DNA of 64,000 nt from assembly GCA_008632985.1 (NCBI GenBank), contig QPGO01000052.1:186001-250000 (forward strand), read 5' to 3'. Shown piece after piece: positions 8,944-46,120 of this stretch. The translations under genes and the position numbers were made by a program. The notes beneath the pieces were generated by a model, which was given only the letters and a program-made list of their open reading frames with translations, made no database searches and was not told where the DNA came from. Numbering within the stretch: the stretch's first letter is position 1; every line of letters begins with the position of its first letter. The stretch is from Psammoneis japonica. Taxonomy: Eukaryota.

Positions 8944-8968
8944 TCTCTCTCTCTCTCTCTCTCTCTCT
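8944..8968. repeat. (TC)n microsatellite
   Basis: Run of tc repeats read directly. Confidence 0.9.
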
Positions 8969-11900: not shown

Positions 11901-12365
11901 CTAACCCCCCATGTTTTGTGCAGTCTTCAAGGTCTTGATGGGGGGATCTTCAGCAACTTGCTGCCATGATGTGGATGCTGGTGATTTCTTCCATTACAAA
12001 GAGCACTTGAAACAGTGGTTAAAGGTGGGTTCAGCTTAGACTTTGTAAATCCTTTCCAAGTTGCTCACAACATGTTTTGCATTTTTTGTGATGTCACTCC
12101 AGGCGTTCCCCGTTCGGTCTTTATTTCCTACAGCTGACAAGGTGGCGGTGTAAATTACGATATGATGCCTTGAGTTTTCATAGAAGCCGTTTCAACAAAC
12201 TGAAGCATGATTTGATTAGTCCTTCCCGTTCCATGCGGCACCTGTAGGACGGAACGCTTCGTGTGCATCTAGCTTTCTAAGAAAAAGTAGTATCTGACAA
12301 GTTAAATTCTCTAGAAATATTAGCGGTTAATCTCTAATCAAATGACCATGTAGTTCTCTTCATCG

Positions 12366-13301: not shown

Positions 13302-13608
13302 TGATGTTGTGTTCCCTCACACCGGTCCCCTCACACCTTGACGTTGAACGTGTGTTTTGGGAAGCGATGATTTTTTGCCGCCGTCCGCGCCAATGCGTGC
13401 GTCATTGCCAATCTCCGGGTGTCTTTTTCAAAAGATGGCGCCAAAAAATATCCAACGCGCACCCGACCGACGCGCGATCCGAGTGAGAGCAAGAAGATCT
13501 CGCGGCAACACGCAAATCCGTTCTGTTGATCATTGCTTAGCCAAGAGCCAAGCAGCAAGGACACAGCAAAGCCATACCGTAGGCCCTAGCTCAAGGATCA
13601 CTGATACC

Positions 13609-16254
13609 ATGTCGTCCGATGAAGAAAGCAACCAATCTGCTTCCCGCGAAGACGAGGAACCGGTGGCGGCGCCAGAATTGGGTTCGCCGGACGAAGACAC
13701 GTTGCGAGTTATGCTCAGTACCGACAACCACCTGGGGTACTGCGAGCGAGACCCAGTAAGAGGTCTTGACAGCTTTGCTGCGTTTGAAGAAGTCTTGTCA
13801 CTTGCGAAAGAAAACGAGGTATGGAGCTACTGATTTCCAGGGAGTCCGTTCAGGTTTGTTGTAGTAGTAGCGTGTTACTCACTTATTTTCAACCCTGCAC
13901 AGTGTGACATGGTGCTGATTGCGGGAGACTTGTTTCACGATAACAAGCCGACCCGACGCACCATGCATAAGACCATTGAGATCATTCGCCGATACTGTAT
14001 GGGTCCCAACCCGGTGCAAGTCAAGATTGTATCCAACCAAAGCTGTAACTTTCGGAGCATCAACGGAAAGGTCAATTACGAGGATGAGTTTTTCTCGGTC
14101 GGTAAGAGAAAAAAGAATACATCATATTTCTTTTCAGCCGCCACCACAATGTACTGTCCTTACAGGTATCTTTTTCATTCTCTTTACTTTCAGATTTGCC
14201 GCTGTTTTCAATTCACGGAAACCACGACGACCCGACACGTGACGGAGGAACAGAAATGCTTGCAGCATTGGACCTCTTGGCCGTGTCTAATCTAGTCAAC
14301 TACTTTGGACGGCAAGACGAAGTAGACAAGGTGGAGATATCTCCTGTGCTCATGCAAAAGGGGTCGACAAAGGTAGCCATGTATGGTATGGGGAGCATGC
14401 GCGATGAGCGTTTGAACCGCATGTGGCAAGGCAAAAAGGTTCGCTTCTTACGTCCTGACAATGATGAAGATGAGGAAGGAAACGACGACAATGACGACGA
14501 GGGATCGTCTCCATGGTTCAACATTTTTGCTCTTCATCAGAACCGTGATTTAGGAAGAGGGGTCAAGAACTGCGTCCATGAATCCATGATTCCCGAGTGG
14601 ATGGACTTGGTAAGCAAACGCGACTCGAACTTGAGATCCTCACAATTTTGCCTATGTATGTATCCTTATAAGATTTGCGCGTGTGCTATGTTCTGACCTA
14701 GGTTGTCTGGGGACACGAACACGAGTGCCGCATTGACCCACAAGAATCGGTTGTGGGGACATTTCGCATCACCCAGCCAGGATCAAGCGTCGCCACGAGC
14801 TTGACTGGTGGGGAGGCGGTTCGCAAGCACGTAGGCATTCTCGACATTAGGGGAAATCAGTTTCGACTCAGTTCGATACCCCTGACTCAGATTCGATCTT
14901 TTGTCATGGGACAAATATCTCTTGCCGAGCGCCAACACGAATTGGACCCTGAAGATCCAAAGATTGATGACAAGGTTTCAGATCTACTCCAAGAGGAGGT
15001 GGAACTTCTCATTTATCAAGCCAAGGAAAAGACTAGGGAATTGCTTAGAGACGCAGTGGCGAATGGGAACACCGCCGGCGAGAAAAGCAACCCTCATCAA
15101 CTGCATTACCGGCTTCAGAAACCTGATGAGGTCTTAGTCAGGCTGAAGGTGGAACATTCAGGTTTTTCCACCCTGAACAACCAGAGATTTGGTGCCAAGT
15201 TTGTGGGAAAGGTTGCCAACCCTTCAGACGTTCTCTTGTTCCACCGTCGTCGACAGCAAGAGTATGAGAAAGGTAGCGCTGGCAAGAAGAAAAAGAAATC
15301 ATCGAACCTGGATCAACCCGTCGCCCCGACAGAAGTGGAAGAAATGGACATTGCCGACTTGTCGAAGCAGGAGTTAGAGAAGTCGGACAAGAGGCTAGAA
15401 ATTCTAGACGAGCAAAAGCTGGGTCTTGCGTTGGACGACTTTGTATCTAAGGAACAGAAGCTTGCTATTCAGGATGCTATGGCGGACATGCTCAAGAAGC
15501 AGCAGCACAAGCTGATCAAGCGTGGGGACGCTGACGCGAGCTCCGTTCGAGAAAGTGTCGCTAAAGAGAAGGAGCGAGAAGAAGAGGAGCAAGACCAGAA
15601 TCGCTCTACAATGAGTGGGCGTAAGCGAAAGGAGGCATCTCATCGCCGTGCCAAGAACGACGACAAAGAGAATTTCAGCGAAGATGAGTAGAGTCGCGAA
15701 AGGAATCAAGAGGCGGAAGGAAGACTGCAAAGAAAACGTCCCGGTCGTCCACGAGGCCAGTGACCACGAACGATTCCGATGATAGTGACGAGGACGAGAT
15801 TCCATCTTCTGCTTCACTTCGTTCCCGTGCAAGGCCGCGCCGCCAGCTGGCAAGGGGTTCGCAAAAACGATACAAAGAAGATAGCGACAGCGACAATGCC
15901 GACGAGGACAGTGATCCAGTGATTGATCTTCAAGAAGATGATGATATGGATATGGACGACATTGAGGAAGAGGTAGTCAAACCAAAGAAACGTGGCAGGG
16001 CGGCCTCGAAGAAAACTCCAGCCAAGACGAAAGGTTCCGCCAAGAAGCCACAACTGTCTCAATCGCAGTTGTCCTTTTCCTCGAAAAAGAGGGGCACTAA
16101 GACTACCTCACGTGCCCTCTCAAATCGGCGCAAGGCTGCCGCGCGCCTCAGTGATGACGACGATAGTGACGAAAACGCTGGGTCGTCGCGAACGGCAAAC
16201 AGTTTGGGATTGTCTGGCGGATGGGGAACCGCTCCTACGCCCTCAATGAAATGA
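13609..16254 (+). CDS. MRE11: Double-strand break repair nuclease MRE11 (exons approx. 13609-13818, 13903-14101, 14194-14609, 14702-16254, with an apparent -1 frameshift near 15688)
   Basis: Phosphoesterase motifs STDNHLGY, AGDLFHDNKP, FSIHGNHDDP, ALHQNR, WGHEHE, ITQPGSSVATSL and NNQRFG..FVGKVANP. Canonical introns. Acidic/basic C-terminal tail. Confidence 0.97.
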
Positions 16255-16477
16255 ACAGCGAAGTAGAGCAGAACCAATGTCATCTTCTCCTAGCCCCCCC
16301 AGACAGGTCAAAGAGTGCTTAGAAAACGCAATGATGTGAGCACAGGAACTAGAACCAAGCATTTGTACCATAGTATCGAACGGTAGCTTTGACTTATCGC
16401 CTAGATAGATCAAATCGATTCTAGCCTCTAGCACAGATATTTGCAAATGTAAGTTCGGGCTAAAACCAGCTCTCTCC

Positions 16478-16570
16478 AGCACTCTCTACTCTACTAGTAG
16501 AGCTAGCTACTCTCTAGAGCTACTACTAGCTAGAGTAGAGAGTACTTCTAGCTATTACTACGGTACCAGC
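16478..16570. repeat. CTA/TAG/CTAG-rich low-complexity island
   Basis: ctctctactctactagtagagctagctactctctagagctactactagctagagtagagagtacttctagc. Confidence 0.8.
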
Positions 16571-17086
16571 GAAGAGCGAGCGAGGAGCGGGCAAAGCGTG
16601 GCCTTGCAGCTAGCTTTTTGAACTTAGCCTACTGTGCTGTCGATGTGCCTGGCTTGCGCGCGCGCGCTAAAGTGTTCTTACTTTCAGTGTAAATATCACA
16701 TTAAGCTATTTTTTATATATGATTCTTAAGATTATTAATTTTTATATGTTGTTGGCATTATATCTATCAGTACTGCATTTTGAATTTCCAGCTTCACTGC
16801 GGCCTACCGTACGTACATACATACCGTATGTAACGAACGATTGACAGAGACATCCGTCGTTCCGTTTGTGTTGCGATCGAGTTGCGAAGATGGTTATTCC
16901 TTCTTCTCGCTGTCGGTGTCGGGTGATTCTCTTTCCGGCGTTACCTCTGTCATAGATAGTGCAGAAGGAGAGCCATTTACGACGTTATGAATGTGTTCTG
17001 GAGCTACAGATAGCTGCGTAGCTTGCGGTTAATGACTGAGTGATACACATAGAAAATACCAAAGCAACAAGCAAAAAGTACCCGCC

Positions 17087-20929: not shown

Positions 20930-21200
20930 ACGTTTAGCTGGCTAGCTTTTCTCTCTACAGCAGCCAGCTAGCGTGCATGTAACTAGTAGCTAGATTAGAG
21001 GTAGATGCTCTGGCTACTACTTCTTCTACTCTCTCTCCTCTCTAAAGAGTAGTCACAGGCTCAGCCTACTAGCTAGTAGAGAGAGGCTGCGAATCTACCG
21101 GTAGTAGCTCTACCGGTAGCTACTAGCTAGAGTAGAGGGCCCTCTACTCTCTAGAGCTAGAGAGTAGCTACTGTACATAGTGCTACATTGTAGGAGTTAC
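20930..21200. repeat. CTA/TAG/CTAG-rich low-complexity island with palindromes
   Basis: Dense agctag, ctact and ctaccggtag motifs. Perfect 22 bp palindrome agagtagagggccctctactct at 21129-21150. Confidence 0.8.
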
Positions 21201-23437: not shown

Positions 23438-26400
23438 GTTGATAGATTTAGTTTCTTATTTTTATGATGTCTTTCGTTGGTTTTGGACGATGGACGGCAG
23501 GTCAGGTGTCGTCGTTCGGAAAAAGATTCTCTGATGCGAACGCGCGGATCGATCGGGAAAGATCTTCCGTCAACAAACGAGCCAGCTGTTGCGAAGCTAA
23601 AAAAATCGACATCCCATTCTCTGGATGGCAGTGGTGTTCTTCGCCTGTCAAAAGAATGGCCTTTGCGATCCCCAACACGTCATTTTGACGTGGTGTTTCT
23701 TTTACACTGTACTGTACTCTTGCGTGATGAAAAGCGGGTCACCTGGAGCTGGAACAGGTGTGATTTGCTGGACAGTGTGCACCAAATTCAAACATCTGCA
23801 AGGGGCTTGTTGAGTCAAAAACATGTGCCTTTCTCAAAGCAGGGTTTTCAACTTGTGCATTTTTTGCAGAGTTCAAAATTTTCAACAAAACTCCATCTTC
23901 AAAGTTTTTTGCTTGCTCTTGCGGAAATGTTCTGGTGTTTGCAGCTGAAAACACCCATTTTGACTTTCTTCCCTTTCACTCCCTTCACGGCAAAATTTCA
24001 GCCATGGGCACGCAGGAACACTTGAAACACCACCAGCAGCTTGTGAACATTGCAAACTTTTTCAGCATGCCTTTCATCTCATTGCAAACTTGAAACCACC
24101 AGTCAGCAATGCAAGTTTCCAGAAGAAAGCCTCTTGCCCCATTTGCTGTGTGCTGGCCATGCACTCATCCTGCACATCAGCCAACACTCAACAATCTGGG
24201 TGCCGGGGACAGAGACCCAGCATTGTGAGCAGACTAAATGACAGCTCCTCATCCCTGAGAAAAAGAAGAAGAGGGGGCGCAACAACTCCCAACCCCAAAT
24301 GAAAAAAACAAGGTTTTTTTGCAAAGAAAAAGCTTGCTTGCAAAATTTTTGTGCTTCCTGTTCTGGCTTCCAGTGTGTGTTAGTTGACTGAGGCAGCTGG
24401 AGCTCTTGTGTTGCAGAGAAAACTGCACATCCCACAATCTGATGTCTCAGACATGTCATGATCTGGTGCTCTTTTGCTGCTGTTGTTTGACATCACTTTG
24501 GCACTGTGCACATGTGCCTTGTTGTGCTGTCAGCCAAAACCCAGCTCTCAACTTGCAAGAAAATGACTGTTGGCATTGTTGTTGAATGCTTTGTCTTGTT
24601 GATTGTGTGTCATGGGACAACTTGTCAACCAGCGCAGCCAGAGACAACCATTTCCTTTTCCATTGTCATTGCATTCTCAGCAGAAAGTTGCCTCTTACAA
24701 AACTTTCCCAACTTTTTCCTTTTCCACAGTCGTTGCTGCGTTCTCAGCAGAAAGAGTTGCCTCATGCAAAACTTTCCCAGTGCTGTGAGAAGACAAAAAA
24801 CAGGCAGAGGCACAGCAAGTGCACAGTGAGAGACAAGAGCCAGAGCTCCTGTCACTGCTCTGACAGCTGCCTGTGCCTTTCAACATCTCTCACCAGCCTG
24901 AGCACTGGCCACCACCACCACTGCCCTGGACCAAGGTGGGCTCCTGCAGTGCCGTGTTTCATTTTTTTCATCAAAACAGACACACAAGTGGCATGATTTG
25001 CACAAAAAAGTTTCTCTGGCTCTGCTCAGCTGCACCCCTTGGTTTTTGCACGTGCAAGTGCTCCTGGCAAAGATGAGTCAAATGACTCCAATGGAAGTGA
25101 CAGAGGAGCACAGCACAGAAAACACCCATGCAGTGTGTGACAGCACTCCTGTGTGCGCAGTGATTTCTGGGCCCCTGCTTGGACAAGAGTGGTGCAATTT
25201 GGGCTGCATGATGAAAAAATGAACAAAGCAAGAGCAACACACAGAGACTTGTTTTGTGCCAGGTCTTGCACACATTTCTCCTGGAAGCTGGGGCAACAGT
25301 TCCTTGCTTTTGCTGTCATCCTCAGGTCTTCCCATTGGGGAGGGGGGGGGGACAGTCACTTGAGGCGCTGTTTGTCATTGTGTGTGTGTGTGGTGTGCCC
25401 ATGTGCCTGGTGTCTTTCTCAACAAGCATGACCTGTGTGTTCAGAAAAAAAATGATGACCGGGTCAGAGCAAATGTTGCGGATGTTGTCACCAAAACACA
25501 GTGTTTCATTGACTTTGCCTGTGCCTCACATTTCAGTTGCCTCTTGTGCCATTTTGCCACTGGAGCAGTGTCACACCAGCAAACCCGGGGGTGTGATGCA
25601 AGCAATGTGTGTTGGTTTGATCCCTCGGCCAAGGTGGTGCTGTGTTTGGCATGCAGCAAATGTCACGTGGAATGTCTTGCTTGCATTTTGTGATTCTCTG
25701 CACTTGTGAGCATGCCTTTTTTGTCAAATCTGACCTTTTGGCATGCATTGCTTTTTTCTTTGCATCTTGTCTAAAAAAAGGTGGCAAAAGTGTTGCAAGC
25801 TGTTGTGGCATGTTCACTTTTGCATGCTTGAAAACAATTTGTCAGGTGCCTGTTTCTTTTGCAGGGAAGCCACATGGGTGAACATGGCATCACAACCTGC
25901 TTTTGTGCATCATTTTTGAAGCCACTCTGTCTTTGGTGAGGATGCTTGAGAACTTGTCCCATGTGCTGCTTGACTGGCATGCTGGAGGAGCTCCATTTTT
26001 TGAACTCTCCATGAGAGCTGTGCTTTGACTCTTGCAATCTTGCACCCTTTGCCATTTGTTTTGGTGTCCTCAACACCTCAGTGGTGTCTGACCAACTGTG
26101 AAATGATGACCTGCAGAAGGACAAGCTTGCAAAGTTTTGAGATCTGGCTTTTCTTGCACTGCAGGCATTTGGCCATGTGGTCTGGGATTTTTTTCTCAAA
26201 ATTGTCTACAAGTTTGGATGATCTCAAGGTGTGTCATGCTTTGCATTTCCACAGCTCACACATCATGTGCCCACAAACAAAGAACGACAGAATTTGACTT
26301 TCATTGCACAACACTGGATGCTGCTTTCCTCTGCAGCTCCTGCTCACAATCAACAGAGCAAGCACATTGTCACATGTGCTGAAATTCCATGTCATTTCAT

Positions 26401-26704
26401 CCTTGTTTGACTCATCATCAATCATCCTTGGCCCCAACAGGCTGGTTGTCACAGCACCCCTTGAGCTGCAGTGCTCTCTGCAGAGCCTCTGCAAAGCATG
26501 TGTGCAGCCCCCCTGTGCTTTTGGGCAGTCCAAGTGCACTGTGATCATGTTGACACAAGGATGCCTCCTTTTCATGACATTTTTGTTGTCATCTCCACAG
26601 GCACACTTTGACAAAAAGAGATGGCCAACCTCAAAGAAGTGAGTTGTTGCTTTAGAACCCTGTGTCTGATTGCCTCTGGCAGAATGTTTTCCAGCCAGAG
26701 CAGC

Positions 26705-26980
26705 TGACAGGATTTGAACAGGATTCAGGTGCGCGCGAAACATCGCGCGCTGTTTAGTTTGCCGCGCACAGTTTTGTGTGCTTTAGTTCCACGCGTTCGC
26801 GCGCGATGTAGTTTGCTTTCGAGCCACAAGGCTCACAAGAATGACAACAGCAGCCCGATTGTGCCGACTTGCACGTCTTTCGGCTCCTGTGACGGTCTCT
26901 GAGCGGAGACTCATCTGCCATTTAGACAGCAGCAAGGAGTTGTTGTTTGAATTCTTGCCATTTGCCTTCAATTTCTGTCA
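26705..26980 (+). repeat. 5' LTR
   Basis: TG...CA termini with a 6 bp inverted repeat. Ten differences, all transitions, from the 3' LTR. Confidence 0.95.
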
Positions 26981-26991
26981 GATTAACAGTC
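26981..26991 (+). promoter_or_regulatory. Putative primer-binding site complementary to the tRNA-Asn(GTT) anticodon arm
   Basis: GATTAACAGTC directly abuts the LTR. Its reverse complement GA-CTGTTAA-TC is an Asn anticodon loop plus stem bases, the same geometry as the copia half-tRNA PBS GGTTATGGGCC. Confidence 0.55.
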
Positions 26992-27936
26992 TTGCTCATT
27001 GTCAACCCATTGAGCAACCGCCATCGTCGTTGTTGATTTACCAACGACGCCACTTCAATTCTGCGTGGACCTCCGTGTGTGTTCTACATGCATCGGCAAG
27101 TCCACGCGCATCCAATGCCAGGGCATCGGCAGGAAGTTAACGTCGCCGTCAAGTTTCCTTGCCGCTGGACATCTGGATTGATCACACTGCCTTTGATCGC
27201 TGAAGACATGCATTCAACGGTCATGTCCAAGTCTGTCCTTGATCCTCATCCCTTGACACACCTGTTCATCGGTTGATGGTCAAGAACCCCACATGTTCGA
27301 GGATCTTTGTCGCTGAGGACATGCACATGCACACATGTCTTCACGGCCAAGAACCTGCACCCACTCTTCGGACTGCGGTTTTGCCACCACTCTACAAGCA
27401 CACCGAGTCCATTGCACCTGATCTGCCCCGGACTGCTGGTGCTCTGCAGTTCCACTGGGTCCACGAGGACGACTGTGAGAGCAAGCAGCCGTGATTGCAG
27501 TCTGCGTTGGGGCGAGGGTGCTTTCCCGCATTTGTTCGTTCGTCCACAGCGCCTGACGCCTACGTCAACTGGCCAGCCTGATCGGGAAATCCAACCGACA
27601 CAAAACAAGAACGGTTCGGGGGTCTTGTCCACCTCTGGTCAGCTTACCTGCAGGGGTTTACAACCCGCTGCTCCGCTCGCAAGCAACCCAAAGCGCCGCC
27701 AGCTGCAGGTTCGGACGTGCCGGCACAACTCTGCGGACCGGATGGGAAGTTTAGCACTTGACAACGAACGGGACAGCACAACCCGGCGACTTCTGATTTT
27801 AAGACAGTCCAAGATTTCAAGTCAAGTCTAGCTCAAGTCAAGTCTTTTTCAAGCCAAGTTCCAAGTCAAAACTCCGAGTCAAGATCGCGCTCTAGATTGG
27901 ATCTTGTCTTTTGTTTCTACTGCACCGTCCTCCGTC

Positions 27937-30201
27937 ATGGTTCTCACGCGACAGCAACAAACCGAAAGCTTCAAGTGCATTCTAGGCACTGTGCTCAATC
28001 AAGACAATGACAGCCCTCTTCGTTCTGCCCTGTCCATCAACGGGATTGAATCGTGCGAGGAATTGTTCACGTTCTCACCCACCCAAATTGACACCCTCAC
28101 TTGCAGAGACGGCGCCAATGTAGTGCCTTTGCCACGGACCCACAGAAACCTCCTAGCAGCTTTGATCAGCTTCCACTTTGTCAAAGTTTGCAACGGTGAT
28201 GATGTGACCAATGAACCCCAGTTGCTCACACCCGAGGAATTTTGCAACTGCCGCCTTGGTCCGGACCACTTGACCTCTCTAGCCACTGGCGCAGCACCCT
28301 CCACACCTGTGCCGAGTCCCTTGCCATCCAAACCAGGTGAACCCAGTGCCATTTTGACACCAGCCTTGCACTGTGCCACCACTCAGGTGTCCCCTAGAAG
28401 TGGTGTCAGTCGCGCCCCGCATGTCTTGACCAACCCGCCTGCAAGCAACCTCGGCCCAGTGCAGGATTGCAGCCCTTGCACAGACCCGCACTTCGAGGCC
28501 AGTTGGGACACTCCACCCATGGCTTCCAAAGCTGCAGCCTTTGCACCCTGCAAACCACTTGCTGCCAACCTCCACGTGTCGACCGCTGTCACCCTTCACA
28601 GTCTTCGTTTGGGAAGTGATGGAGATGACAACTTGCTTCTCGCATCTCCTGATGGGGAGCCTCCTTTTCCCGTCATTGAATCTGTTCACAACAGTTCAAC
28701 CAGTTCATCAGATGGGGAGTTCAGGACATCCAAGCAGCTTCGTTGTCTTCGGATCCTCCAAGCATCGTACCTCGAGACCAGGCCTCCTGATTGGATGCCT
28801 CAAGTCTCGTGCCTCGAGACTGGGCCTCCTGATTGGATGCCTCAAGTCTCGTGCCTTGAGACCAGGCCTCCTGACCGGATGCTCCAAGTCTCGCACCTTG
28901 AGACCAGGCCTCCTGATTGGATGCCTCAAGTCTCGTACCTCGAGACTGGGCCTCCTGATTGGATGCCTCAAGTCTCGTGCCTTGAGACCAGGCCTCCTGA
29001 CTGGATGCTCCAAGTCTCGTGCCTTGAGACCAGGCCTCCTGATTGGATGCCTCAAGTCTCGTACCTCGAGACCAGGCCTCCTGATTGGATGCCTCAAGTC
29101 TCGTGCCTCGAGACTGGGCCTCCTGGTTGGATCCCCCAAGTCTCGTACCTCGAGACCAGGCCTCCTGATTGGATGCCCCAAGTCTCGTACCTCGAGACCA
29201 GGTCTCCTGATTGGATGTCCCAAGTCTCGCACCTCGAGACTGGGCCTCCTGATTGGATGCCTCAAGTCTCGTGCCTTGAGACTGGGCCTCCTGATTGGAT
29301 GCCCCAAGTGTCGTACATCGAGACTGGGCCTCCTGATCGGATGCCCCAAGTCTCGTGCCTTGAGACCAGGCCTCCCAACTGGACTCTCCACGTCTCGTGC
29401 CTCAAGACCGGGCCTCCCAATTGGATCCTCCACATCTCACACCTCAAGACTCGGCCTCCGGATTGGATCCCTCAAGTCTTGCACCACGAGACTCGGCCTC
29501 CTGATTGGATCCCCCAAGTCTCGCACCTCAAGACTTGGCCTCCTGATTGGATCCCCGAAGACTCGTGTCACAAGACTGGCAAGTCCTTTTGGATCCCAGA
29601 AGTCTTGCAGCACGGGACTGGTTGCCCCAATCAGACATCTGCAGCCTTGCACCACAAGATGTCTTGCTCCAATCCAATCCCCGAAGGCTTGCACCTTGAG
29701 ACTCGTTTCTCCAATTGGATCAGTCTCTCAGGAGATGCAGCTGAGCTTGCAATCGGATTGGTGGAACACAAGACCACCGCTTGTGCCTTTGAACTCATGC
29801 TTGCTCTGTTCCCCGAGTCGTGCAAATGCCATGCCACCCTGCACGAGCACTGCTCTGTTTTTCTAGCAGCAGCCCAGTGTGGCAACTGTCCCAAGAACCA
29901 ACAGACGGACATCAGTCTTTATGACCTTCGCTCAGGAAGTGAAGGCGATGTCAACTTGTTTGCATTGTCCTGCAATGTTGCCCTGCCGTTCAACATTGTC
30001 AACCAGACCAAGCTTTGCTCCTTCCATTGCAAGTGCGGATGTGGAATCCCACAAGATCCCAAGTGTGCCTTGAGCTTTGAAAAGCACAACGGCATCTGCA
30101 ATTGGGGAGACGCAGCTCATCTCAAGATGACCCACTTGGAGAATGCAACGTTGCTCTTGGATCTTGATCCTTTCTTGTCTCCTCATGTTTTGGTGCTTTG
30201 A
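27937..30201 (+). CDS. Element ORF: gag-like N-terminus + 14-aa repeat array + short pol remnant; no RT/RNase H/integrase core
   Basis: 'MVLTRQQQ...FKCILGTVL...SPLRSALSINGIES' resembles diatom copia gag starts. 'CKCGCGIPQDPKCALSFEKHNGICNWGDA' resembles, from memory, the pre-RT copia segment 'YKYGY.IP.DY..AL..D..NG...W.DA' with Y replaced by C. Confidence 0.7.
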   Translation: MVLTRQQQTESFKCILGTVLNQDNDSPLRSALSINGIESCEELFTFSPTQIDTLTCRDGANVVPLPRTHRNLLAALISFHFVKVCNGDDVTNEPQLLTPEEFCNCRLGPDHLTSLATGAAPSTPVPSPLPSKPGEPSAILTPALHCATTQVSPRSGVSRAPHVLTNPPASNLGPVQDCSPCTDPHFEASWDTPPMASKAAAFAPCKPLAANLHVSTAVTLHSLRLGSDGDDNLLLASPDGEPPFPVIESVHNSSTSSSDGEFRTSKQLRCLRILQASYLETRPPDWMPQVSCLETGPPDWMPQVSCLETRPPDRMLQVSHLETRPPDWMPQVSYLETGPPDWMPQVSCLETRPPDWMLQVSCLETRPPDWMPQVSYLETRPPDWMPQVSCLETGPPGWIPQVSYLETRPPDWMPQVSYLETRSPDWMSQVSHLETGPPDWMPQVSCLETGPPDWMPQVSYIETGPPDRMPQVSCLETRPPNWTLHVSCLKTGPPNWILHISHLKTRPPDWIPQVLHHETRPPDWIPQVSHLKTWPPDWIPEDSCHKTGKSFWIPEVLQHGTGCPNQTSAALHHKMSCSNPIPEGLHLETRFSNWISLSGDAAELAIGLVEHKTTACAFELMLALFPESCKCHATLHEHCSVFLAAAQCGNCPKNQQTDISLYDLRSGSEGDVNLFALSCNVALPFNIVNQTKLCSFHCKCGCGIPQDPKCALSFEKHNGICNWGDAAHLKMTHLENATLLLDLDPFLSPHVLVL
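28759..29598 (+). repeat. 42 bp coding minisatellite, about 20 units (QVS[Y/C/H]LET[R/G]PPDWMP)
   Basis: The unit caagtctcg(ta/tg/ca)cctcgagac(ca/tg)ggcctcctgattggatgcct is repeated in frame. Confidence 0.95.
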
Positions 30202-30267
30202 CTCCAAAGTTCTTTAGTCAATCCGAAGTCGAATCTGTTTCTGTGACTCCTCAAGCAAACTGGGGAG

Positions 30268-30543
30268 TGACAGGATTTGAACAGGATTTAGGTGCGCGCG
30301 AAACATCGCGCGCTGTTTAGTTTGCCGCGCACAGTTTTGTGTGCTTTAGTTCCGCGCGTTCGCGCGCGATGTAGTTTGCTTTCGAGCCACAAGGCTCACA
30401 AGAATGACAACAGTAGCCCGATTATGCCGACCCACATGTCTTTCGGCTCCTGCAACGGTCTCTGAGCGGAGACTCATCTGCCATTTAGACAGCAGCAAGG
30501 AGTTGTTGTTTGAATTCTTGCCATTTGCCTTCAATTTCTGTCA
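30268..30543 (+). repeat. 3' LTR
   Basis: Direct repeat of 26705-26980, preceded by the polypurine tract and followed by the TSD GCAGC. Confidence 0.95.
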
Positions 30544-32932
30544 GCAGCTCCATGATGACTCTGGTGCACTGCACTTGCATCAAGAAGGAAACAAATGCCC
30601 ACCTGACTGGACAGTGCACGCAAATCAGCTCTTTTGCATGTGGAGGAGCTGTGGGAAGAGCATGTGATCATCTGGATCATGGGTTTGACACAGACTCTGA
30701 CAGCCCTGCCAATGCCAAATGGCAGAGGTCAAGCTGACAGTGATTTGCAACAAGTGCCAAGAGCACCTGGCAAAAGACCATGGCATTTTGTCAGATTCAG
30801 CAGAGGAGCATGCATGGAACCAAGAGTTCTCTGCAGTGCGTGCATGCAGAGCTGGATCTCAACTGTCCAACCTGGCCAAGTTGAGAGTTTGCAAAAAGCA
30901 AAGCACCTGGCACTTCATGGCACACACACACACCATCTCCAGCTGCTTCTGTCAGGCTGACCCCCCTCTGGGTGGCACCATTCCAAGCTGATCACAGTGG
31001 CTTCTGCCATGCTCCTCATTGAGTGTGCTGGAAGCATGGGTTGGCTGGCGCCGGCAAGCACAATGCACTTGATTTGCCACTGGCACTGATGCAAACATTT
31101 TGCCAGACAAACTTGTTGGTCACAGGCTTGTTTTCTTTTTTTGAAATCATGCAGAAAAAGTTGCCAAATCTCCACATTCCGTGTGTGCAGGGATGGTGTG
31201 TTGCCTTCCTTGTTCCACACAACCAACAGACCTTTGAGAGCCACACAGCATCTCCTGAGTGGGGACAAGTTGGTGCAGTGCTTGTCACCAGGTCACGGCC
31301 CCACTTTGCAATCAAATTGTGCATCTTTTGCCTTTTGTCTCTTGGCAAACCTTTTCGAAGTCTCAAAACAGCCTGGGAAGTGCTGCACCCAGTTTTCTTT
31401 GAATTGGAGAAGACTTGCACTCCCTCTGCAAGGGCGGAATTTTGCATGCAGGTTGCACCACCATCCTCACCTTCCTCGCGACCACAGTTGCAGAAAAGAC
31501 ATGCAGCCGGAAAATCCACCTCAGGCTCAAGAAGGAGAGGTGCAAGGCTGAAAAGAGAGTCATCGAAGGAAACTTGAATCCAAGTGTCTGTTTTGTCTCT
31601 GTCATTTGGATGGAGATCTTTGTCATTTTGTTTCATGGATTTTGAACAAAGCAGGGGGGTGCCACTTTGAGGGCACAACAGAAAGCTCCGCGATCACTGA
31701 CATTGTCAGGCATTGGAGATGCCCACATCGGTGGGTGCATTTCCATGTCATGCAGCTCTTTGTGGAGATTCAGAGAAGCGATTTGTTTGTGTGCATGACA
31801 ACAAAGCAATTTCAGCAAAGACAACAAAGCTGAGCTGCTTTCCCCATGTGCAGCTTGCAACATTTTTGAAACAACGGCAAAAGGAGGCAGCCTGTCTTCA
31901 ACCTTCTGCTCTCCACACTTCATGCCGGCAGTGTCACTCTTCTCACCATTGGGCATTCTCAGGATTTGACGCTTCTTTTTTTTCTGGGATGCTGCTGCTG
32001 CTGCTGCTGCTGCTGCAATTTTGGTGGTTTTTCCCTTTGAGCTTTGAGGGATGAGGGCATCCTGTCGAATCAAGTCGTCGGCGACTTTGAACAATCTTGG
32101 AGGCTTTCCCACATTGATCTTCTTCGCTGAAACTTTTCAAACCACAAAATCCTCTGGAGAAGTCTTGATCCACCCCACAATCTCCCAACTGTTGAATTGA
32201 GGTGCTGGCGGCATTTGCGATGTTGTTGCCAAATGGTTTTCTGGCAACATGTGTGGCGGCGGTGGGTTTGGAAAAGAGCCGCCGATTGCGATGGAATTCA
32301 AGTGACACCGAAGCGGCAACATGTTGATGATCTTGCATCTTGACATGCATTGGAGGGTGAGTCTGGCTTCTTCTTGTTCAAATCCGCACTTTTGTTTTCG
32401 TCGTCGTGTTCTATGTTGCTGCAATGGGTTGAACAGCGGACTCTCTGGGTGTTGTCGTCATGGCTGGGAAGCACTCTCTAACTCTCTGCTCCAGCTCAAG
32501 AGCAGGAGCTTGCTCTCTCCAGCTGCTGCAAGCAGCAGAGAGAGCACTTCAAGCAGCTCTCTGCTCGACCTGCGACACACGCGATGCGGCGATGCTGGCA
32601 GGTCTGCCGACCGAGAGCGAGACACCCCTGTGGCAGGGGAGCTGTGTGTGTGTTCATGGTTGCGTGCACACGGCTTCACCATGCGTTGAGTTTCAATGTT
32701 AATGCACACATGCATGTGCACATTCCACAAGCAAGAATGTGGTTCAGGATTTTTCCTGTTGCTGTTAGCATTTGTGCACAAATGCACAAACAAATGCGTG
32801 AGGACATTTGTGTAAAAATATAATGAATAAGACATAAATCTGCGACGTGCCGGTAACCATGACACCACCCATATTCTCCCCTACCGCCAGCACAGGGGTG
32901 AGAGCGAGAGAGCGCCTGCCTGCACAGCTTGC

Positions 32933-38749: not shown

Positions 38750-41700
38750 AGAACCCAGCAGACACGGTGCCCCGGAAGTGTGCACATTTTGTCTTCGACC
38801 GTTCTGTCATCCTTTTGCACGCCTTGTGCGACAGCTGTTTGCATCACATCTTTCGTGGCACGCCCCCCCCCCCATTGATGCACCCAGCAGCAGAGTTGTC
38901 GGAGAATCTTGGCCATGCACACAGCAGCCTGAGTGCTGGTGCGCCAACCCACGCAGCCCTGGTGTGTGTCTGCAGCAGAGCCAGCATGTGGTGCTCTTGC
39001 CACCGCTCGTGTCTGCAAGGTGCGCTCTGTCTTTTGCAAATCTGAAAAATGGAAGGTGCGATTTGCTCTTGTTGAGAGTTGAAATTTGCTTGACAACAAA
39101 AAGCTGCATGTTCTTGTCAAGGAGTGCTCCTTCATTGCCTCTGCAAATGGGTGGATTTTCACAGTTGACCCAAATTGGCAAAGCGGCCAGGAAACCAGAC
39201 TCAAGGAAATTTGGTCTCACAACATGTTGCGAGCTCTTCACAAGATCACTTTCCCATGTGTTCACAGTGCCATTGTTGTGAATTCATTGTGTGTGTCCAC
39301 AGCCAAGTTGGCAAAGCAAGACACAACAGACAGCAGGCGAAACATGCATGGCTCATTTCTGTGCACACGCACACCCAAGTCAATCTTGCTGATGGTGGCT
39401 GTCATTGTTTTTTGGCTGGAGCATGTCATGCCAACAATTTGATTTGTTCATTTTCTTTGTTGTTTGTTGTGTGTTGCACTGGTCACAACTTCTGGTTGTG
39501 CATTTTTGGAACAAGGCAGCAATGCCGCTGCACGAGAGCCACAAGCAAGTCCAACATTCGACATCAAGTTGCCAGGATGTGGAAGTCCAAGCTGCCCAAA
39601 GTCACCAAGACATCTGGGTTCTTAATTTGCCAAAATCTGGTGATTTTGCTGGCTCTGGCCAGACAATCACCATGGGCACAGCTCTCTCCTCTCTTTCCTC
39701 TGGCTGGCTGGCCGCTCTGCCACTCGTCTCTGCTGCTGCCAGCAGAGCCACTGGCTGGCTGTGCCCCCCCTGCTTGCATTTGCACCAGTGCACCCAGCTG
39801 TGGTGCTGGCAGTGCTCCTCCACTGATGGGGTGGATGGGCAACACTGGGGCTTGAAGCAGTGCTTGCTGCTGGGAAGCAGAGCTGGCATGCCACTCCTTG
39901 ATTGTTGTTCACATTGAAAACATCCCTCACTCCTGTGAGCTCAATGCAGAGAGGTGGAAGACATGACATGCCTCTTTGTGACAGCAATTGAAGCTGTTCA
40001 CTTGGCTTGCCACTGAGCTCTTTGGAAAAATGAGCAAAACAGAGGCCACCAAGAAAGCACGCTTGTTGTTGTGGTCAAAGGATGTGCATCATTGCAACTC
40101 ATCTTCAGCTTTTGTGGTTGTCATCTCCCTTTTGTGTTGGTTGCTTGCCCACTTTGTGCGAGTGTGTTGTGGAGCTCAAAATTTCGTTCTCGCCACATCA
40201 AATGAGGGCCACAAGATAAAAACACATTGTGGCAGCCAGCAGAACAGGCAAGGAAGGGCACATTTTTTGTGACTCTGGGGAATCCTTCAACAAGGCAAGG
40301 GGAAGCCAAACCAAAAACCAAAGAGACTCAACTTGGGAGCACTGATCACCTCTTGTCTGAAGCAAAAATGGGCCAAAGCAAAGGAGTGCATTCAAGTGCA
40401 CCCCCCACAAGCAACACATGAGATCACATTGTTGTTTGTTGCTTGTTGGCAAATCTGTTCTTCACTGGGTCTGTTGAGATGAGTGTGTTGGTCAATTGAA
40501 ACAAGATGATTTCTCTGATTGAGAAACAGATGAAATGGAAGATGGGTTTGAGGTTTCCCATCAAATGTGCGACTTTGTGCAGTCAACATTTGTTCTTGAT
40601 GTGGCTTTCAGCAGAGATGGTTTGGGTTCATCTGAGAAATGGGCACTCATGCAAATGTCACCGTTGTTCTGCCATGACAGAATTGGAAACACACCACTGC
40701 TCTTCCATGTTGGCCACAACTGGCACACAGCCAGCCCAATGCTCACAAATGTGTTTTTCTGGATTTGGCTCAACAGATCTGCACAAATGCATTGTCATTG
40801 TGCATCCAAAAGTGTGTGTGTTGGGGGGGGAGGGGGCACACCAGATTTCAGAGCTTTTGGTGGCTCATTGCAGTGGCACTCCTTCAGAGGATCCCACTTC
40901 AGTTGACCCCAGATGAAGACAGTGACCCACTCCAAACTGAACAAGTTTTTCTGCTCTGTTTCCAAGGCATCGGAAGCTGCTGTGTCAGAACATGGTGCTG
41001 GAGGACTTGAGCACCAAGACATGACAAAGTTTCATTTCCAATTGATGCAATGTTTTTGGAGGCTGTTGATTTGGAGACACCTCACAAGTCTGACTTTCAA
41101 ATTGTTGATCTCATGTCACCTTGGAGGACTCAAAGCAGCATCAGAAGACTGGCTCCATTTCATGCTCTGGCATGGGCACCCTTTTGTCATCTGCACATGT
41201 CAAAGATTCTCCTTGAAATGTCCGACCACTGTCAAGGCATGTTGCCACTTTGCACAGCAGGAGCACAGCCTCTGCTGCCAGATTTGCTGCTGCTGTTGCT
41301 GAGGCAGAGCCAACCAAACTCCACTGACATCAAAGGAATTGAGTGTCCTGCAGAACCAGTGGGTCCAAACAGCACTTGGACAGCTTGGGTTTTGCTTGTG
41401 CAAGGCAATGTGGTTGTTGACTGGCATGGAAATGCTGACAGATGGCAAAAACTTCATGATTCTTTCATTGCTGAGTGCTTGTCCTCAGGCTGCAGCTCAC
41501 CCAACAACAACTGGTGCTTGGCTGGGGCACTTCACTGTGCCATCAAATGAGGTTGTGTGTGGAGGCAGCAAGACAGTTGTGGAAGGCAGTTCCAGATTCA
41601 GCAACTGCTTTTGATCCAAAGACAAGATTGTCTCCATTCTGGCTGGCTGCATCAGCTCCTGAAAAACCTCCCTCAGGCTTCAAAAGATGCCTGACAATGG

Positions 41701-44700
41701 GCTGGATGCAACACTTGAGTTGGCCCACATTCATCTGGGAGCTGCTTCAGTCAGGAACACCCAAGCATTTTTCTCTTCAAGCCAGTGCCAGTGCAGCAAC
41801 TGAAAAGGCTGTGGGTGCTTGTCATGCATGCACAAGGAAACACGGGAACCACAAAATGTGTTGCATGCAACACAGAGAGGTTGCAACAAGCAAATTTCCA
41901 ACACAGAGATCAGTGCAGCAGAGCCAGCCAGCAGCTTCTCTTGTTGCAGATCACAACATGCATTGCAGCTCTGATGCCAGCATCACAGAAATGAAAGAGG
42001 CTCACTCTGACCCTGAAGACAAGCTTTGGAGGAAGGCTCACAGACTGGCTCTCTTGCCAGATGCTCCTCATCAGCATGATTTGGGTGGAAAGCTTTCAGC
42101 AGATCCCACGTTGACTTGCCAGTGCTTTGAAGCCTTTCACAGAAAGCTGTCATCCAACAAATGCCCAGTCATTTGTTTGTGGCTCTGCCAATGATGCAAG
42201 AGAGCACTTGAAACAAGCCAGTGAATGCCTCCAGGAGCACAAATCTGGACTCAGCATTTGAGAAAGCAGTGCTGTCCTGGCCCTTGGCAACAAGCAAAAA
42301 GTTTTGAGGAGCCAAAAACAGTGCAAAAGCCTTGCCCCAGCTGCACCAATGGTGACAACAGAGATTGCAAGTTGCAAATCATATGCATGATGCAGAAACA
42401 GACCCAATGATGGAGATGGTGCACAGAATGCACTGGATTTGCTGCTTTTGGGGTTGCCCACATCTGCCGTGCAGAAGCCTCTCATCACATCTGACTGAGG
42501 AGATCATGCTGTTGACAATGGGCTCAACTTGACATTGTGGCAGGCAAGTGACTTGTGAGCTCTCATTTTGTTTGGCAGCGCTGGGTGCTGAACATTGTTT
42601 CAATCAGATGCAGTGCATCTGTTTTCAAAGAAGATTGATGTCTCACTTTTTGTGATCTCAGCTGGCTCTTGTCCAGAGCAACATTTTCACATTGGTGGTG
42701 CTGGCTCACACAGCTTGTTTCTTTGTTTGTGTCTGTGAGGGTGCTGTTGCATCTAATCTTTGCAGCCAATTCTCACATGCACAACAACCTTTTTGTTGCT
42801 GTTGCACTCTTGTCATGGTGGTTGAAGCTTGCAGGCAGGAGGTCAGAGGTCATGGAGTTGGTCACACAGGCAGTCACAGACTGGGGGCTGGTCAAGCAAG
42901 AGGTCAACTGGGTCAACTTGGTCTTGGTGCTGAACATGCAAATGCAAAGAGCAGATGTCCTCCTCCCTGACAATTGGTTGCCTGTGCCAATGTGGTTGTG
43001 CTCTGGCCTCATGTTGCCTTGTCCCACAGGTTGGTGACGGCTTGAGAGCTTCCCAACTTTAGAGCAAGCTGCAAGCATGATGTCCAACAACCTCCAAGCA
43101 GTGGCAGGATGAGGGGGCACTGGTGGTCTCTGGGAGATCCCAGGTGACACTTTGACAACTGCAGTTGAGCATTGAGCAGTGCAAGGCACCAGTGTTGTGC
43201 AGCTGTGGCATCCTGTCCCATCCTCCATCAGCCAGAAGCACACGTCTTCTTCAAACTCTGACTCCAGAATGAAAGGACCACATGATGGTGCCAACCAACA
43301 TGACAACAGCAAGCTGAGGGCATTGATGGTCTCTGGTGGATCCACATGACACTGCAACACCACGGCTGAGCAGAACAAGGCCTGTCTTGTGTGGTTGTGG
43401 CCCCACATCATCTTGTTCTGACAGGAGGAGCAGACTTGAAAACTTCCCAACTCCACAGTGAAAGGGCCGCACACGCCAGCCAACCCAGTGGCAGCAAGCT
43501 GAGGACGCTGACGGTATCTGATGGGTGCCTGGCAACACTTCAAGAACTGCAACTGGTCATTGCAAGGTTGGCCTTATGGTGTTGTGGCCTGCTGATGTCA
43601 CCTTGTCTCCAACAGCAGCAGATTTGAATTTCCAAACTCCAGAGCAAAAGGCCCCTGTGGTGGCACCAACCAACCTGACAACTGCAAGCTGCTGAGGGCA
43701 CTGGCAGTGTCTGGTGGACCCCAGGCAAGACTTTCAGAAGTGTGCTTGAGTGTTGCAAGGTTGATCTTGTGGTTGTGGCTCCATGTCACCTTGTCCCCAA
43801 TGGCAGCACATGTGAGTTTCCAAACTCCTCCAGAGTGCAAGGAAACCACAATGGTGCCAACCAACCTGAGGCAACAGCAAGCTGAGGGCATTTGCAGTCT
43901 CTGCTGGACCCCAGGTGTTGGCAGCCTTGCCACATGATGGACAAAACAAGAAGACAACACAGAGTCAGATGTCCTGGCACTTTCACAGAATTGGGCTGGA
44001 AGCTTCGCCCTCCACCAGAGCTCCACAGGTGGATTGCTTTTTGACATTTGAAACAGAGAAGCTTTTTGTCAAACTCCTCCTCCAAAGTGGGCACCTCAAA
44101 TGAAAATGTCCAAAGCCACATGAAACACCAGCTGTCCATGCAAAACAGAGGGACCAAGAAAGATGTGATTTTGCCAAGAAATGTCCCACAAAGCACAGAA
44201 TTTTGCATCACCTGGAGCTGGAGCAGGCCTTGAGGCCAGGCAGATCTCTGCTGACATGTTTGATGTTTGGTGCCACTCTTTGATGCCAAGCCCTGTTGTG
44301 CCACCACAAGCACATGTCTCTCAGACAGGCCAGAGGATGATTCCTGCTGCAGTCCATGGACCCTGCAAGACTGCCTGTCTCATGCCACATGTTTGTCATC
44401 TCTGAGTTGTCATTTTCTTGCACCTCCTGTCTCAAAAATCTGAGATTGCACATGTTGCAATGGATGGAGCATTGGAGCAGCCAGGTTTTGGCTCTGAACT
44501 CTGCCGCCATTGGCTTTGGATGTGCGGTGCTGCCATTTTCTGTCAGCTTGAACAAGACCAGCAGAAATGGAGCACATGAAAGTTCCTCTCCAGCAGTGCC
44601 AAGACTGCCACATCAAATTATTCCACAACCTTCCCAGCGTGTCTGCTCTTGCCAACAATGGCCCCTCATTTCCCAGCCATGGAGAGCACAATGTGTGGCA

Positions 44701-45460
44701 CAGAGAAAGCAAGCAGGCTCCATGAGTTTGTGCTGGAAAATGTGAAAATGTGCTTTGACATGACCGCTGATTGCTGCAAATTGAAGCACACTTTCTTTTT
44801 CTGACACCAAGCTCCAAGAGTAAAGAGAGCACCCCAACAAAACGCAGCTTTGAACAACAAAAGTTTCCACGTCCTTTTGACCAACTCTCTGTTGTAAACA
44901 CAGGTCTTTGGCGGCAACAGGAGGATCCTGTCACTTGGCACACTCCTCTCATCACTGCAACACTTCCTGCAGCCACTGCAAGAAGTCTGCTCTGCACTCC
45001 ACAGAAACAAGCCAAGACACCCAATGGATGAAGATGTCAAGCATTGAGCCCTCCACATTGGGAGTCCTGTGGCAAGTCACTGACACCCTGCTCGACATGT
45101 TGACATGACTGTTCTTCCTTGCCATTGTTTTGTGTAAAAAAATGCCCTCTGCCTGGTTTGATCCTGACTTTTGAAATGAACACAAGTGCCAGGTGGTCTT
45201 TGTTTGAATTTAAAGCGACAGATGGCTGTCACCCCATGACTTGTGCTCCTCTCTGGGACAATGTGCACCAGGCATGACTGGGATTTCCATGGCTCTGTTG
45301 TGTCGGCTCCAATTTTGTTGCATTGAACCCAACAATGCTTTGAACATTTGTGGAGAAAGAAGAATGGAATCAAGGTGGAACAAGTGCAAGCAGGATGCCA
45401 CAATGCAAATGGTGTGCTTTGAGGGACACAACAAAGGACGGCTGTTCCTCAGAGCTTAAA
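38750..45460. other. TpA/CpG-depleted degenerate block 4
   Basis: TA is extremely rare over ~6.7 kb. No intact gene. Confidence 0.85.
43050..43930. repeat. Degenerate tandem array, ~190 bp period, about 5 copies
   Basis: Anchors 'ttcc(c/a)aact...ccaacc...gcaagctgaggg...tctctggtgga' recur near 43050, 43250, 43444, 43630 and 43818. Confidence 0.7.
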
Positions 45461-46120
45461 GGGATGCATTCTATGTGTCCCCCCGTAAAACATTAGAATG
45501 TGACTGAGCGCATGGAGCTGCCAGCCCTCGGAGCAAAGCTGCACGCAGCATGGGAACTAAATGATGACAATGTCATGCTGCATGTAGCACACGAATGTGC
45601 TGGGACGTTCACGGAGAGCGTTGGACGATCTACCGCTTTTCACGTCCACACCACGCTGCTTCATGAATCATTCAGATGGCTGTCGTGAGTCATTTCAGGA
45701 CCGGCTGCCCCACTTCTACTGCCGGTAGCTAGTAGCAGAGGCACGCATCTTTCTCCACGCCTTACTGTTAGATGTAGAGATTTTCGATGCCTTCGGTCTT
45801 GTAGGAAGAAGCGTTTTATCTGGTTGTCTCAACTCGACTGACTCTGTAGCAACTCACATGAGGCAGTCAACAGTGTGCGATATATGCAGAATTTTTGGAC
45901 TCTGGTAGAGTCTTCGTTCTCGTTGAATAATTCTTAAGCTTGGCGGATTCGCAGACCCTCATTTGATCTGCTTTATTCAGAACTTCCTATTGCAAAATGA
46001 CAGAAGAACTAGCATCGATCTATGTAACAAGTTTGTCAGACCTGTATGGTTTACTCTAGCGTATCCATGAGCGAGCACTCAACATTAATGCGAAAATGCG
46101 TGCACACCACAACGATGCAG

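What the first reader, a model, noticed from the sequence alone, without database searches (positions are those of the whole stretch)
28759..29598. 42 bp repeat array gives the direction of mutation: TAC -> TGC or CAC
At the same codon across about 20 units I read Tyr TAC x6, Cys TGC x9 and His CAC x5, interspersed, and never CGC. TGC and CAC are two steps apart but each is one transition from TAC. TAC is therefore the parsimonious ancestor, hit independently on either strand. This is the strongest internal evidence that TA is being destroyed rather than created. A second site (acCAgg vs acTGgg, once acCGgg) is ambiguous between TA and CG ancestry.
Basis: partly seen in the sequence, partly recalled or inferred. 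Interest (0 to 1): 0.8.

Follow-up and report, generated by a model that had tools for sequence, protein, structure and literature searches.

The report
TA-erasing mutation in a diatom retrotransposon
A 42-base repeat inside a diatom jumping gene records a mutation process that rewrites TA steps to TG or CA after the element has inserted, a kind of natural genome editing so far described in one unrelated alga; the repeat alone, however, is weaker evidence for the direction of change than it first appears.

Summary
The array is real: 20 units of 42 bp with TAC 6, TGC 8, TGT 1, CAC 5 and no CGC. It lies in the gag-like frame of a 3.8 kb non-autonomous LTR element, whose Copia-type partner is in the same (diatom) genome. 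The direction TA to TG/CA holds, but not for the reason given. In the window alone, 'no CGC' has p of about 0.1. Nine of 13 non-TAC units are inherited states shared by other copies, one CAC comes from CGC, and only three are independent hits. The proof comes from elsewhere: 0 CG against 26 expected in 312 core units; sister LTRs differ at 42% of TA sites and 0.9% of ordinary sites, equally on both strands; and tyrosines conserved in 120 outside Copia proteins read Cys or His in 174 of 267 cells here, never the reverse. TA is lost about 7 times faster than CG and prefers TAY. The same signature is published for Bigelowiella natans (bioRxiv 2026). My searches found nothing for diatoms. The scan has noted this process many times on other DNA of this genome. 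The enzyme is unknown; DNA adenine deamination is the best guess.

The parts
26700..26704 (+). Left target-site duplication GCAGC
26705..26980 (+). 5' LTR, 276 bp, TG...CA
   Evidence: 96% identical to the 3' LTR; 7 of 8 differences are TA/TG/CA/CG exchanges
27937..30201 (+). Gag-like open frame (stop-to-stop frame starts at 27832, 789 aa). Its start is homologous to the gag end of a 7.1 kb Copia-type element; no pol in this copy
   Evidence: 83% DNA identity to L106 over 26705-28278; no Pfam hit for the frame itself
28759..29598 (+). 42 bp (14-codon) tandem array, 20 units; variable codon 4 (TAC/TGC/CAC) and second site (CA/TG; TA in other copies)
28885..28926 (+). Unit with a private TAC to CAC hit (TAC in L031 and L038)
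29011..29052 (+). Unit hit in opposite directions in sister copies: TGC here, CAC in L031, TAC in L038
29431..29472 (+). Unit -3: CAC here; TAC 16, TGC 16, CAC 10 of 42 arrays
29473..29514 (+). Unit -2: CAC here derives from CGC (CGC/CGT 23, TGC 11, CAC 7, TAC 1 of 42 arrays), so a CpG loss and not a TA loss
30262..30267 (+). Short polypurine tract GGGGAG before the 3' LTR
   Evidence: the same 12 letters precede the 3' LTR in 36 of 37 elements with two LTR hits
30268..30543 (+). 3' LTR, 276 bp, TG...CA
30544..30548 (+). Right target-site duplication GCAGC
23500..32500 (.). Host block almost free of TA and CG into which the element inserted (similar blocks at about 1-2000, 6500-12000 and 39000-45500)
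   Evidence: pooled 16.6 kb of such blocks: O/E TA 0.03, CG 0.11, TG 1.86, CA 1.82, against TA 0.62 and CG 1.02 in 38.5 kb of other DNA

Best explanation
The array is a passive recorder inside a non-autonomous LTR retrotransposon of a diatom. After a copy inserts, a process acting on chromosomal DNA converts TpA to TpG (A to G on one strand) or CpA (the same change on the other strand). It needs a 5' T almost absolutely, prefers a 3' pyrimidine (TAY), shows little or no same-strand clustering, and runs about 7 times faster than the parallel CpG decay in the same DNA. Variants made in earlier rounds are passed on when units duplicate and when the element is copied again, which explains most of the TGC/CAC pattern in this window. 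SHOWN (about 0.95): direction, post-insertion timing, strand symmetry, context. INFERRED (about 0.55): the lesion is deamination of adenine to hypoxanthine by a TadA/ADAT2-type zinc deaminase that reaches silent, probably CG-methylated chromatin, and the effect is to disable mobile DNA.
For: Direction: at 28 columns where at least 85% of the aligned outside Copia proteins (120 used) have Tyr, ten genomic copies show Cys 123, His 51, Tyr 74, Phe 19 of 267 cells; at 4 conserved Cys and 21 conserved His columns Tyr appears in 0 of 227 cells. TA and CG co-occur in 2 of 196 TA-bearing columns of the 7.1 kb element. Timing: 24 sister-LTR pairs differ at 192 of 452 TA-column sites, 105 of 522 CG-column sites and 43 of 4648 other sites; 106 of the TA-column differences are TG in one LTR and CA in the other; 2 of 24 target-site duplications differ as CA versus TG. 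Symmetry: TA/TG 39, TA/CA 45. Rate: TA kept 771 of 2952 cells, CG kept 3126 of 3747, ratio about 7. Context: per-strand rate TAY 0.99-1.20 versus TAR 0.37-0.41, and 0.60-0.67 versus 0.35-0.40 in the autonomous copies; 21 of 38 surviving TA in old blocks are YTAR and 3 are RTAY. A to G at AA, GA and CA is 0.8, 0.8 and 0.3%. Domain behaviour: TA loss tapers over about 300-400 bp beyond element ends in the 10 of 48 flanks with normal distal TA. An ADAT2-type gene with HAE, PCxxC and the Asn is present. The same signature was measured as de novo mutation in Bigelowiella natans, whose authors propose ADAT2.
Against: No enzyme is shown. The deaminase set found is ordinary: one ADAT2, one TadA-like, two A_deamin genes, and no expansion or chromatin-domain fusion seen in the frames read. 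The Asn is in all 29 of 120 homologues in which the motif could be read, so it is not diagnostic. Evolved TadA7.10/8e mutate A in any context (PMC10085711, passages), which is looser than the roughly 80-fold TA specificity here. Sequence alone cannot tell A to G from T to C on the opposite strand. Same-strand clustering, expected of a processive single-strand deaminase, is absent in 4 of 5 distance bins and slight in one (0.520 versus 0.499 at 10-30 bp, z 2.5). The array's own TAC is kept far more often (29 of 39 at unit -6) than RTAY sites elsewhere (11%), which is unexplained. The column-based rate includes some inherited variants and so may be too high.
Confidence: 0.55

Rival explanations
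1. Mark-then-decay: a base at TpA in silent DNA is chemically modified (an oxidised or alkylated thymine in R-T-A context, or a methylated adenine), perhaps by or alongside a methyltransferase such as the DNMT4/RID-like genes, and the modified base mispairs or deaminates, as 5mC does at CpG.
For: The TAY rule for A is the same as an RTA rule for T on the other strand. The process is strand-symmetric, unclustered and co-located with CpG decay; TA kept and CG kept correlate over 10 autonomous copies (rho 0.88). The genome holds 27 PF00145 matches, and diatom DNMT4 is related to fungal RID with unknown function (PMC9998398, passages).
Against: I know of no such TpA mark (recalled; not searched). 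ApT, the eukaryotic 6mA context (recalled), is only mildly reduced (0.76 versus 0.90). The B. natans preprint's text does not mention CpG. The DNMT4 assignment of the genes here was not tested.
Confidence: 0.25
2. Error-prone repair synthesis: deaminated 5mC in methylated elements triggers patch repair by a low-fidelity polymerase that misinserts at A:T pairs, as polymerase eta does at WA motifs in somatic hypermutation (recalled).
For: TA loss and CG loss share domains and correlate. Slight same-strand excess at 10-30 bp.
Against: AA is no more mutable than GA (0.8% each), whereas a WA rule predicts strong AA to AG. TA events outnumber the CG events that should trigger them by about 7 per site. 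No dependence on distance to the nearest CG column (0.33, 0.22, 0.33, 0.24 kept).
Confidence: 0.1
3. Editing during the retrotransposition cycle (ADAR-like A-to-I on element RNA, or editing of cDNA).
For: Two A_deamin genes are present; the 5' U preference of ADAR is cited in the B. natans preprint; some variants are inherited by whole sets of copies.
Against: Sister LTRs, identical at insertion, differ at 42% of TA sites and in both directions. Target-site duplications and flanking DNA are hit. Non-retroelement DNA is stripped too. TG and CA are equally frequent.
Confidence: 0.03
4. Array-local effect or artefact: TAC, TGC and CAC arose once each (or TA is being created from TG and CA, as in RIP) and spread by unit duplication; or long-read base-calling errors at modified bases.
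For: Nine of 13 non-TAC window units are inherited. An older subfamily has only CAC/CAT. The window differs from contigs of run X1 by many one-base gaps, so it probably has read errors.
Against: Orthologous units show TAC, TGC and CAC side by side in sister copies. Outside proteins fix Tyr as the starting state. TG or CA columns revert to TA in 12 of 7815 cells.
Confidence: 0.03

Closest known systems
TpA hypermutation of integrated viral DNA in Bigelowiella natans (Mettrop et al., bioRxiv 10.64898/2026.01.13.699255; parts 1-3 of 5 of the text read, plus a term search; remaining parts and supplements not seen)
   Same: TpA to TpG/CpA on both strands, confined to foreign or silent DNA; long-term TpA loss with CpA+TpG gain; can affect single-copy DNA; ADAT2 proposed but not shown.
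   Different: There it was measured as de novo mutation in a rhizarian, in virus-derived regions that still hold 3-9% TpA. Here it is inferred from copies in a diatom, acts on LTR retrotransposons after insertion, runs to near-total erasure, is paired with CpG decay and has a TAY preference. The preprint's text has no occurrence of diatom, CpG, LTR or context.
Repeat-induced point mutation (RIP) of ascomycete fungi
   Same: Dinucleotide-specific transition mutagenesis that disables mobile DNA on both strands and leaks into flanks (RIP properties recalled; link of RID to diatom DNMT4 from PMC9998398 passages).
   Different: Opposite direction: RIP makes TpA from CpA/TpG (recalled), this process removes TpA. 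A trigger by pairing of repeats is not shown: a nearly single-copy block is also stripped.
5-methyl-CpG decay in methylated transposons (DNMT5 in diatoms; PMC9998398 abstract and passages)
   Same: CG to TG/CA occurs in the same copies and explains the CAC at unit 29473.
   Different: It cannot remove TA; TA and CG columns are separate and TA loss is about 7 times faster.
Ty1/copia LTR retrotransposons of diatoms (CoDi; PMC2806351, passages)
   Same: LTRs TG...CA with a target-site duplication; the partner element has RVT_2 and 1534 relatives at E <= 1e-30.
   Different: This copy is a pol-less derivative with a 42 bp array that the autonomous partner lacks. Its CoDi lineage was not determined.

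Membership tests
Non-autonomous Ty1/copia LTR element | Paired LTRs TG...CA, 5-bp target-site duplication, polypurine tract | tested here: met
Non-autonomous Ty1/copia LTR element | Shares LTR and gag start with an autonomous Copia element carrying RVT_2; lacks pol itself | tested here: met
Non-autonomous Ty1/copia LTR element | Integrase upstream of RT in the partner | tested here: inconclusive
   Pfam found only RVT_2 in 4 of 4 partner frames scanned
CoDi lineages (CoDiI, CoDiII) | RT phylogeny with CoDi references; primer-binding site | not tested
   no reference set in hand
B. natans-type TpA hypermutation | A/T to G/C transitions restricted to TpA, both strands | tested here: met
B. natans-type TpA hypermutation | Confined to foreign or silent regions, genes spared | tested here: met
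   (window and flanks only; not genome-wide)
B. natans-type TpA hypermutation | About 1000-fold de novo rate, on in some lines only | not testable with these tools
   needs mutation-accumulation lines
B. natans-type TpA hypermutation | Same enzyme (unknown there; ADAT2 proposed) | not testable with these tools
   ADAT2 present, activity on DNA untested
RIP | C to T at CpA/TpG, creating TpA | tested here: not met
   direction is the reverse
RIP | Triggered by sequence duplication | tested here: inconclusive
   duplicated methyltransferase-like genes are TA-stripped, but so is block 23600-26690, which has only short matches elsewhere (the search can miss old repeats)
RIP | Premeiotic, RID-dependent | not testable with these tools
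   PF00145 genes present; RID/DNMT4 orthology not tested
ADAR/APOBEC editing of retroelement RNA or cDNA | One-strand bias, identical sister LTRs, no change outside the element | tested here: not met
Polymerase eta WA mutagenesis | AA as well as TA is a hotspot (recalled) | tested here: not met
   AA 50 of 6248, GA 46 of 5637
5mCpG decay | CG to TG/CA on both strands | tested here: met
   methylation itself not observed

The most novel reading that the evidence does not exclude
Diatoms carry a natural DNA adenine editor that serves as genome defence: a 'reverse RIP' that is guided to silent chromatin, converts TAY to TGY until mobile DNA has almost no TA left, and is shared with Rhizaria, so ancestral to or repeatedly evolved within SAR. 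Pol-less elements such as this one would persist because a TA-stripped progenitor can still be copied and offers fewer targets (its 3' internal part has TA in 4 of 104 YR columns).
Probability: 0.35. Interest if true: 0.9.

Novelty: new variant of a known kind. Interest (0 to 1): 0.62.

Why it matters
No natural enzyme that edits adenine in eukaryotic chromosomes as a defence has been identified in the papers I saw; the one preprint with this signature offers only a candidate. A diatom in which whole element families lose about three quarters of their TA steps while ordinary sites change by under 1% gives a strong, countable phenotype, a sequence rule (TAY over TAR, no AA), a short candidate list, and a second SAR lineage for comparison. 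It also matters for practice: LTR-based ages in this genome are inflated several-fold unless TA and CG sites are masked; loss of TAA/TAG should lengthen open frames in dead elements (inference); and tandem-unit counts overstate the number of independent mutations.

Tried and rejected
Pfam scan of 32 window frames: nothing for the array frame or for frames in the TA-poor blocks beyond one weak zinc finger. Homologue search with the gag start among longer proteins: 0 of 987 candidates. Atlas look-up gave an unnamed cluster at 0.94 with low recognition, a lead only. Tet_JBP: no match, but the control rang nowhere, so absence is not shown. PF14437 added no deaminase beyond those. Same-strand clustering: null in 4 of 5 bins. 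Distance to the nearest CG column: no trend. Flank TA density does not predict TA kept inside (rho -0.24, p 0.25, n 24). TA kept does not track background divergence in the 24 short elements (rho -0.15), but tracks LTR identity weakly in the 10 long ones (rho 0.65, p 0.04). No RNA holder was listed; run X2 shows splice joints and next to no cover of the element or the TA-poor blocks, which is no evidence on expression. Outside Copia proteins show no Cys/His at the conserved Tyr columns in 105 of 120, but they are selected long frames, many from short assembled contigs that may collapse copies, so this says little about other species. Rows dropped: of 39 loci, 37 had two LTR hits, 27 passed the end and duplication filter and 24 were kept for alignment (L040, L045, L055 left out as nested, truncated or internally deleted). 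Paper searches for a diatom report (listings only) and term searches in 10.1101/2025.10.24.684338 and PMC2806351 found none; the library lacks most subscription journals.

Full report
OBSERVATION. The array exists as described: period 42, 28751-29566, no indels. Its 20 in-frame units have TAC x6, TGC x8, TGT x1 and CAC x5 at codon 4, with no CGC. In the window alone the missing CGC is weak evidence: 2.1 expected if the two letters varied independently, P(0)=0.11.

WHAT THE ARRAY SITS IN. It lies in a 789-codon open frame inside a 3.8 kb element with 276 bp LTRs (26705-26980 and 30268-30543, TG...CA, 96% alike), a GCAGC target-site duplication and a short polypurine tract. The genome (91 Mb, 597 contigs) gave 54 matches to the array region (40 of 71 candidates scored) and 950 first-look candidates for the LTR. 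A 7.1 kb element with the same LTR, a frame of up to about 1900 codons and RVT_2 is the likely autonomous partner; the short element matches it at 83% over 26705-28278 and lacks pol. The host is a diatom by the named hits of a housekeeping gene (Skeletonema, Thalassiosira). The window alternates sharply between ordinary DNA and blocks almost free of TA and CG: O/E TA 0.03 and CG 0.11 in 16.6 kb, against 0.62 and 1.02 in 38.5 kb.

I anchored 43 arrays from 39 loci on their last unit. Unit -1 is CAC in 40 of 43; unit -2 is CGC/CGT in 23 of 42, with TGC 11 and CAC 7; units -4 and -5 are TGC in 35 and 36 of 40; -7 is TGC in 21 of 38 and -8 CAC in 22 of 36. Typing units by ten other positions shows types h and k are TGC in 24 of 25 and 14 of 16, and the window's two k units are one duplicated variant. 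Read by eye, L031 has the window's unit order and the same codon in 16 of 19 units. So of the window's 13 non-TAC units (TGT unit aside) nine are inherited, one (29473) is a CG loss, and three are independent TA hits: 28885 (TAC in L031 and L038), 29011 (TGC here, CAC in L031, TAC in L038) and 29431 (TAC 16, TGC 16, CAC 10). An older subfamily has CAC/CAT in all 9 units found, so the deep ancestor of the unit is open. Both refutation criteria are thus partly met. Yet the core units do behave as a TA hub: TA 130, TG 80, CA 102, CG 0 of 312, against 26 CG expected, and the second site resolves the same way (TA 9, TG 131, CA 167, CG 0).

DIRECTION, TIMING AND RULE FROM BETTER EVIDENCE. (a) Outside polarity: the best 120 of 1534 related Copia proteins have Tyr in at least 85% of aligned rows at 28 columns; ten genomic copies read Cys 123, His 51, Tyr 74, Phe 19 of 267 cells there, while conserved Cys and His columns give Tyr in 0 of 227. 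(b) After insertion: 24 sister-LTR pairs differ at 192 of 452 TA-column sites, 105 of 522 CG-column sites and 43 of 4648 others; TA/TG 39, TA/CA 45, TG/CA 106. Two of 24 target-site duplications differ as CA versus TG. (c) Two separate processes: TA and CG share 2 of 196 TA-bearing columns in the long element. TA is kept in 771 of 2952 cells and CG in 3126 of 3747, a rate ratio near 7; inherited variants may inflate it. (d) Context: TAY 0.99-1.20 versus TAR 0.37-0.41 per strand, and 0.60-0.67 versus 0.35-0.40 in the long element. A to G after A, G or C is under 1%. (e) Little same-strand clustering: null in four distance bins, 0.520 versus 0.499 at 10-30 bp. (f) Domain behaviour: TA per 100 bp rises 0.4, 1.2, 2.8, 3.1, 4.4, 5.3 outward from element ends in the 10 of 48 flanks with normal distal TA. 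Duplicated methyltransferase-like genes are stripped as well, and so is a block with only short matches elsewhere.

MECHANISM. Shown: chromosomal, post-insertion, strand-symmetric TpA to TpG/CpA change with a TAY preference. Rejected as main source: RNA or cDNA editing (sister LTRs, duplications and flanks are hit), RIP-like creation of TA, and a WA-type polymerase error (AA equals GA). Inferred, about 0.55: adenine deamination by a TadA/ADAT2-type enzyme in silent chromatin. The genome has one ADAT2, one TadA-like and two A_deamin genes; nothing marks any of them as a DNA editor, and the Asn noted in the preprint is present in all 29 homologues where the motif could be read. Evolved TadA enzymes are less strict than this process (PMC10085711, passages). 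The main rival, about 0.25, is a chemical mark on T or A at TpA that then decays, possibly tied to the many C5-methyltransferase genes (diatom DNMT4 is related to RID and of unknown function, PMC9998398 passages). Unexplained: the array's TCG-TAC survives in 29 of 39 copies at unit -6 but 16 of 42 at unit -3, which lacks the 5' CG, whereas RTAY sites elsewhere survive in 11%; support for shielding by CG elsewhere is slight (0.39 versus 0.31).

COMPARISON AND NOVELTY. The same substitution signature was measured de novo in integrated viral DNA of Bigelowiella natans (bioRxiv 10.64898/2026.01.13.699255; parts 1-3 of 5 read; supplements not seen, and its mutation table bears on the TAY question). 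I learned of that paper from earlier notes of this scan. Its text has no mention of diatoms, CpG, LTRs or flanking context. Five searches and term searches in two diatom TE papers found no diatom report. The process works like RIP in reverse but fails RIP's defining direction. I file it as a new variant of a known kind: same signature, new lineage, acting on LTR elements to near-total erasure, alongside CpG decay, with a 3' rule. The scan has already noted it in many other windows of this genome; those notes are not counted as support.

VERDICT. Observation confirmed; interpretation partly supported (right direction, overstated evidence). Interest 0.62, carried by the process and not by the array.

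Noticed in passing
L085, L086, L087, L091 (G000 C297, C301): Duplicated copies of a C5-methyltransferase-like gene have 16-23 TA per 3.3-3.6 kb against 102-168 in the other PF00145 loci, with CG largely kept (139-167); two copies differ mostly by CG/TG/CA/TA exchanges (94 of 123). Host-like duplicates may be targets.
   Followed up: partly
L081, L082, L088: Several C5-methyltransferase genes, one with a weak chromodomain hit in an upstream frame; possibly an expanded DNMT4/RID-like set (assignment from recalled motifs, untested).
   Followed up: no
L116-L119 (G000 C40, C79): Two separate A_deamin (ADAT1/ADAR-type) genes in one diatom genome.
   Followed up: partly
window 1500-2000, 23500-24000, 32000-32500: At block edges TA loss extends about 500 bp further than CG loss (2-4 TA but 20-21 CG per 500 bp).
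   Followed up: partly
window 23600-26690: Fully TA/CG-stripped host block with only short matches elsewhere; a 42 bp piece near 23717-23758 recurs at many places in the genome.
   Followed up: no
window 28759-29346, codon 4 of the units: TAC directly after CG survives far more often than its RTAY class predicts; possible shielding by a methylated CG.
   Followed up: partly
window 9177-10903: Contigs of run X1 differ from the window by many one- or two-base insertions in the TA-poor block, suggesting unpolished small indels in the assembly there.
   Followed up: no
window 13546-16457 and 62424-63806: Ordinary genes: Mre11 (spliced in run X2) and an SNF2-family frame; cytochrome b561 at 46124-47140.
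   Followed up: no
window 16491-16545 and 21105-21170: Short intergenic stretches rich in TAG/CTA words (48 TA in 16501-17000) that share loose matches with each other in the laid contigs.
   Followed up: no
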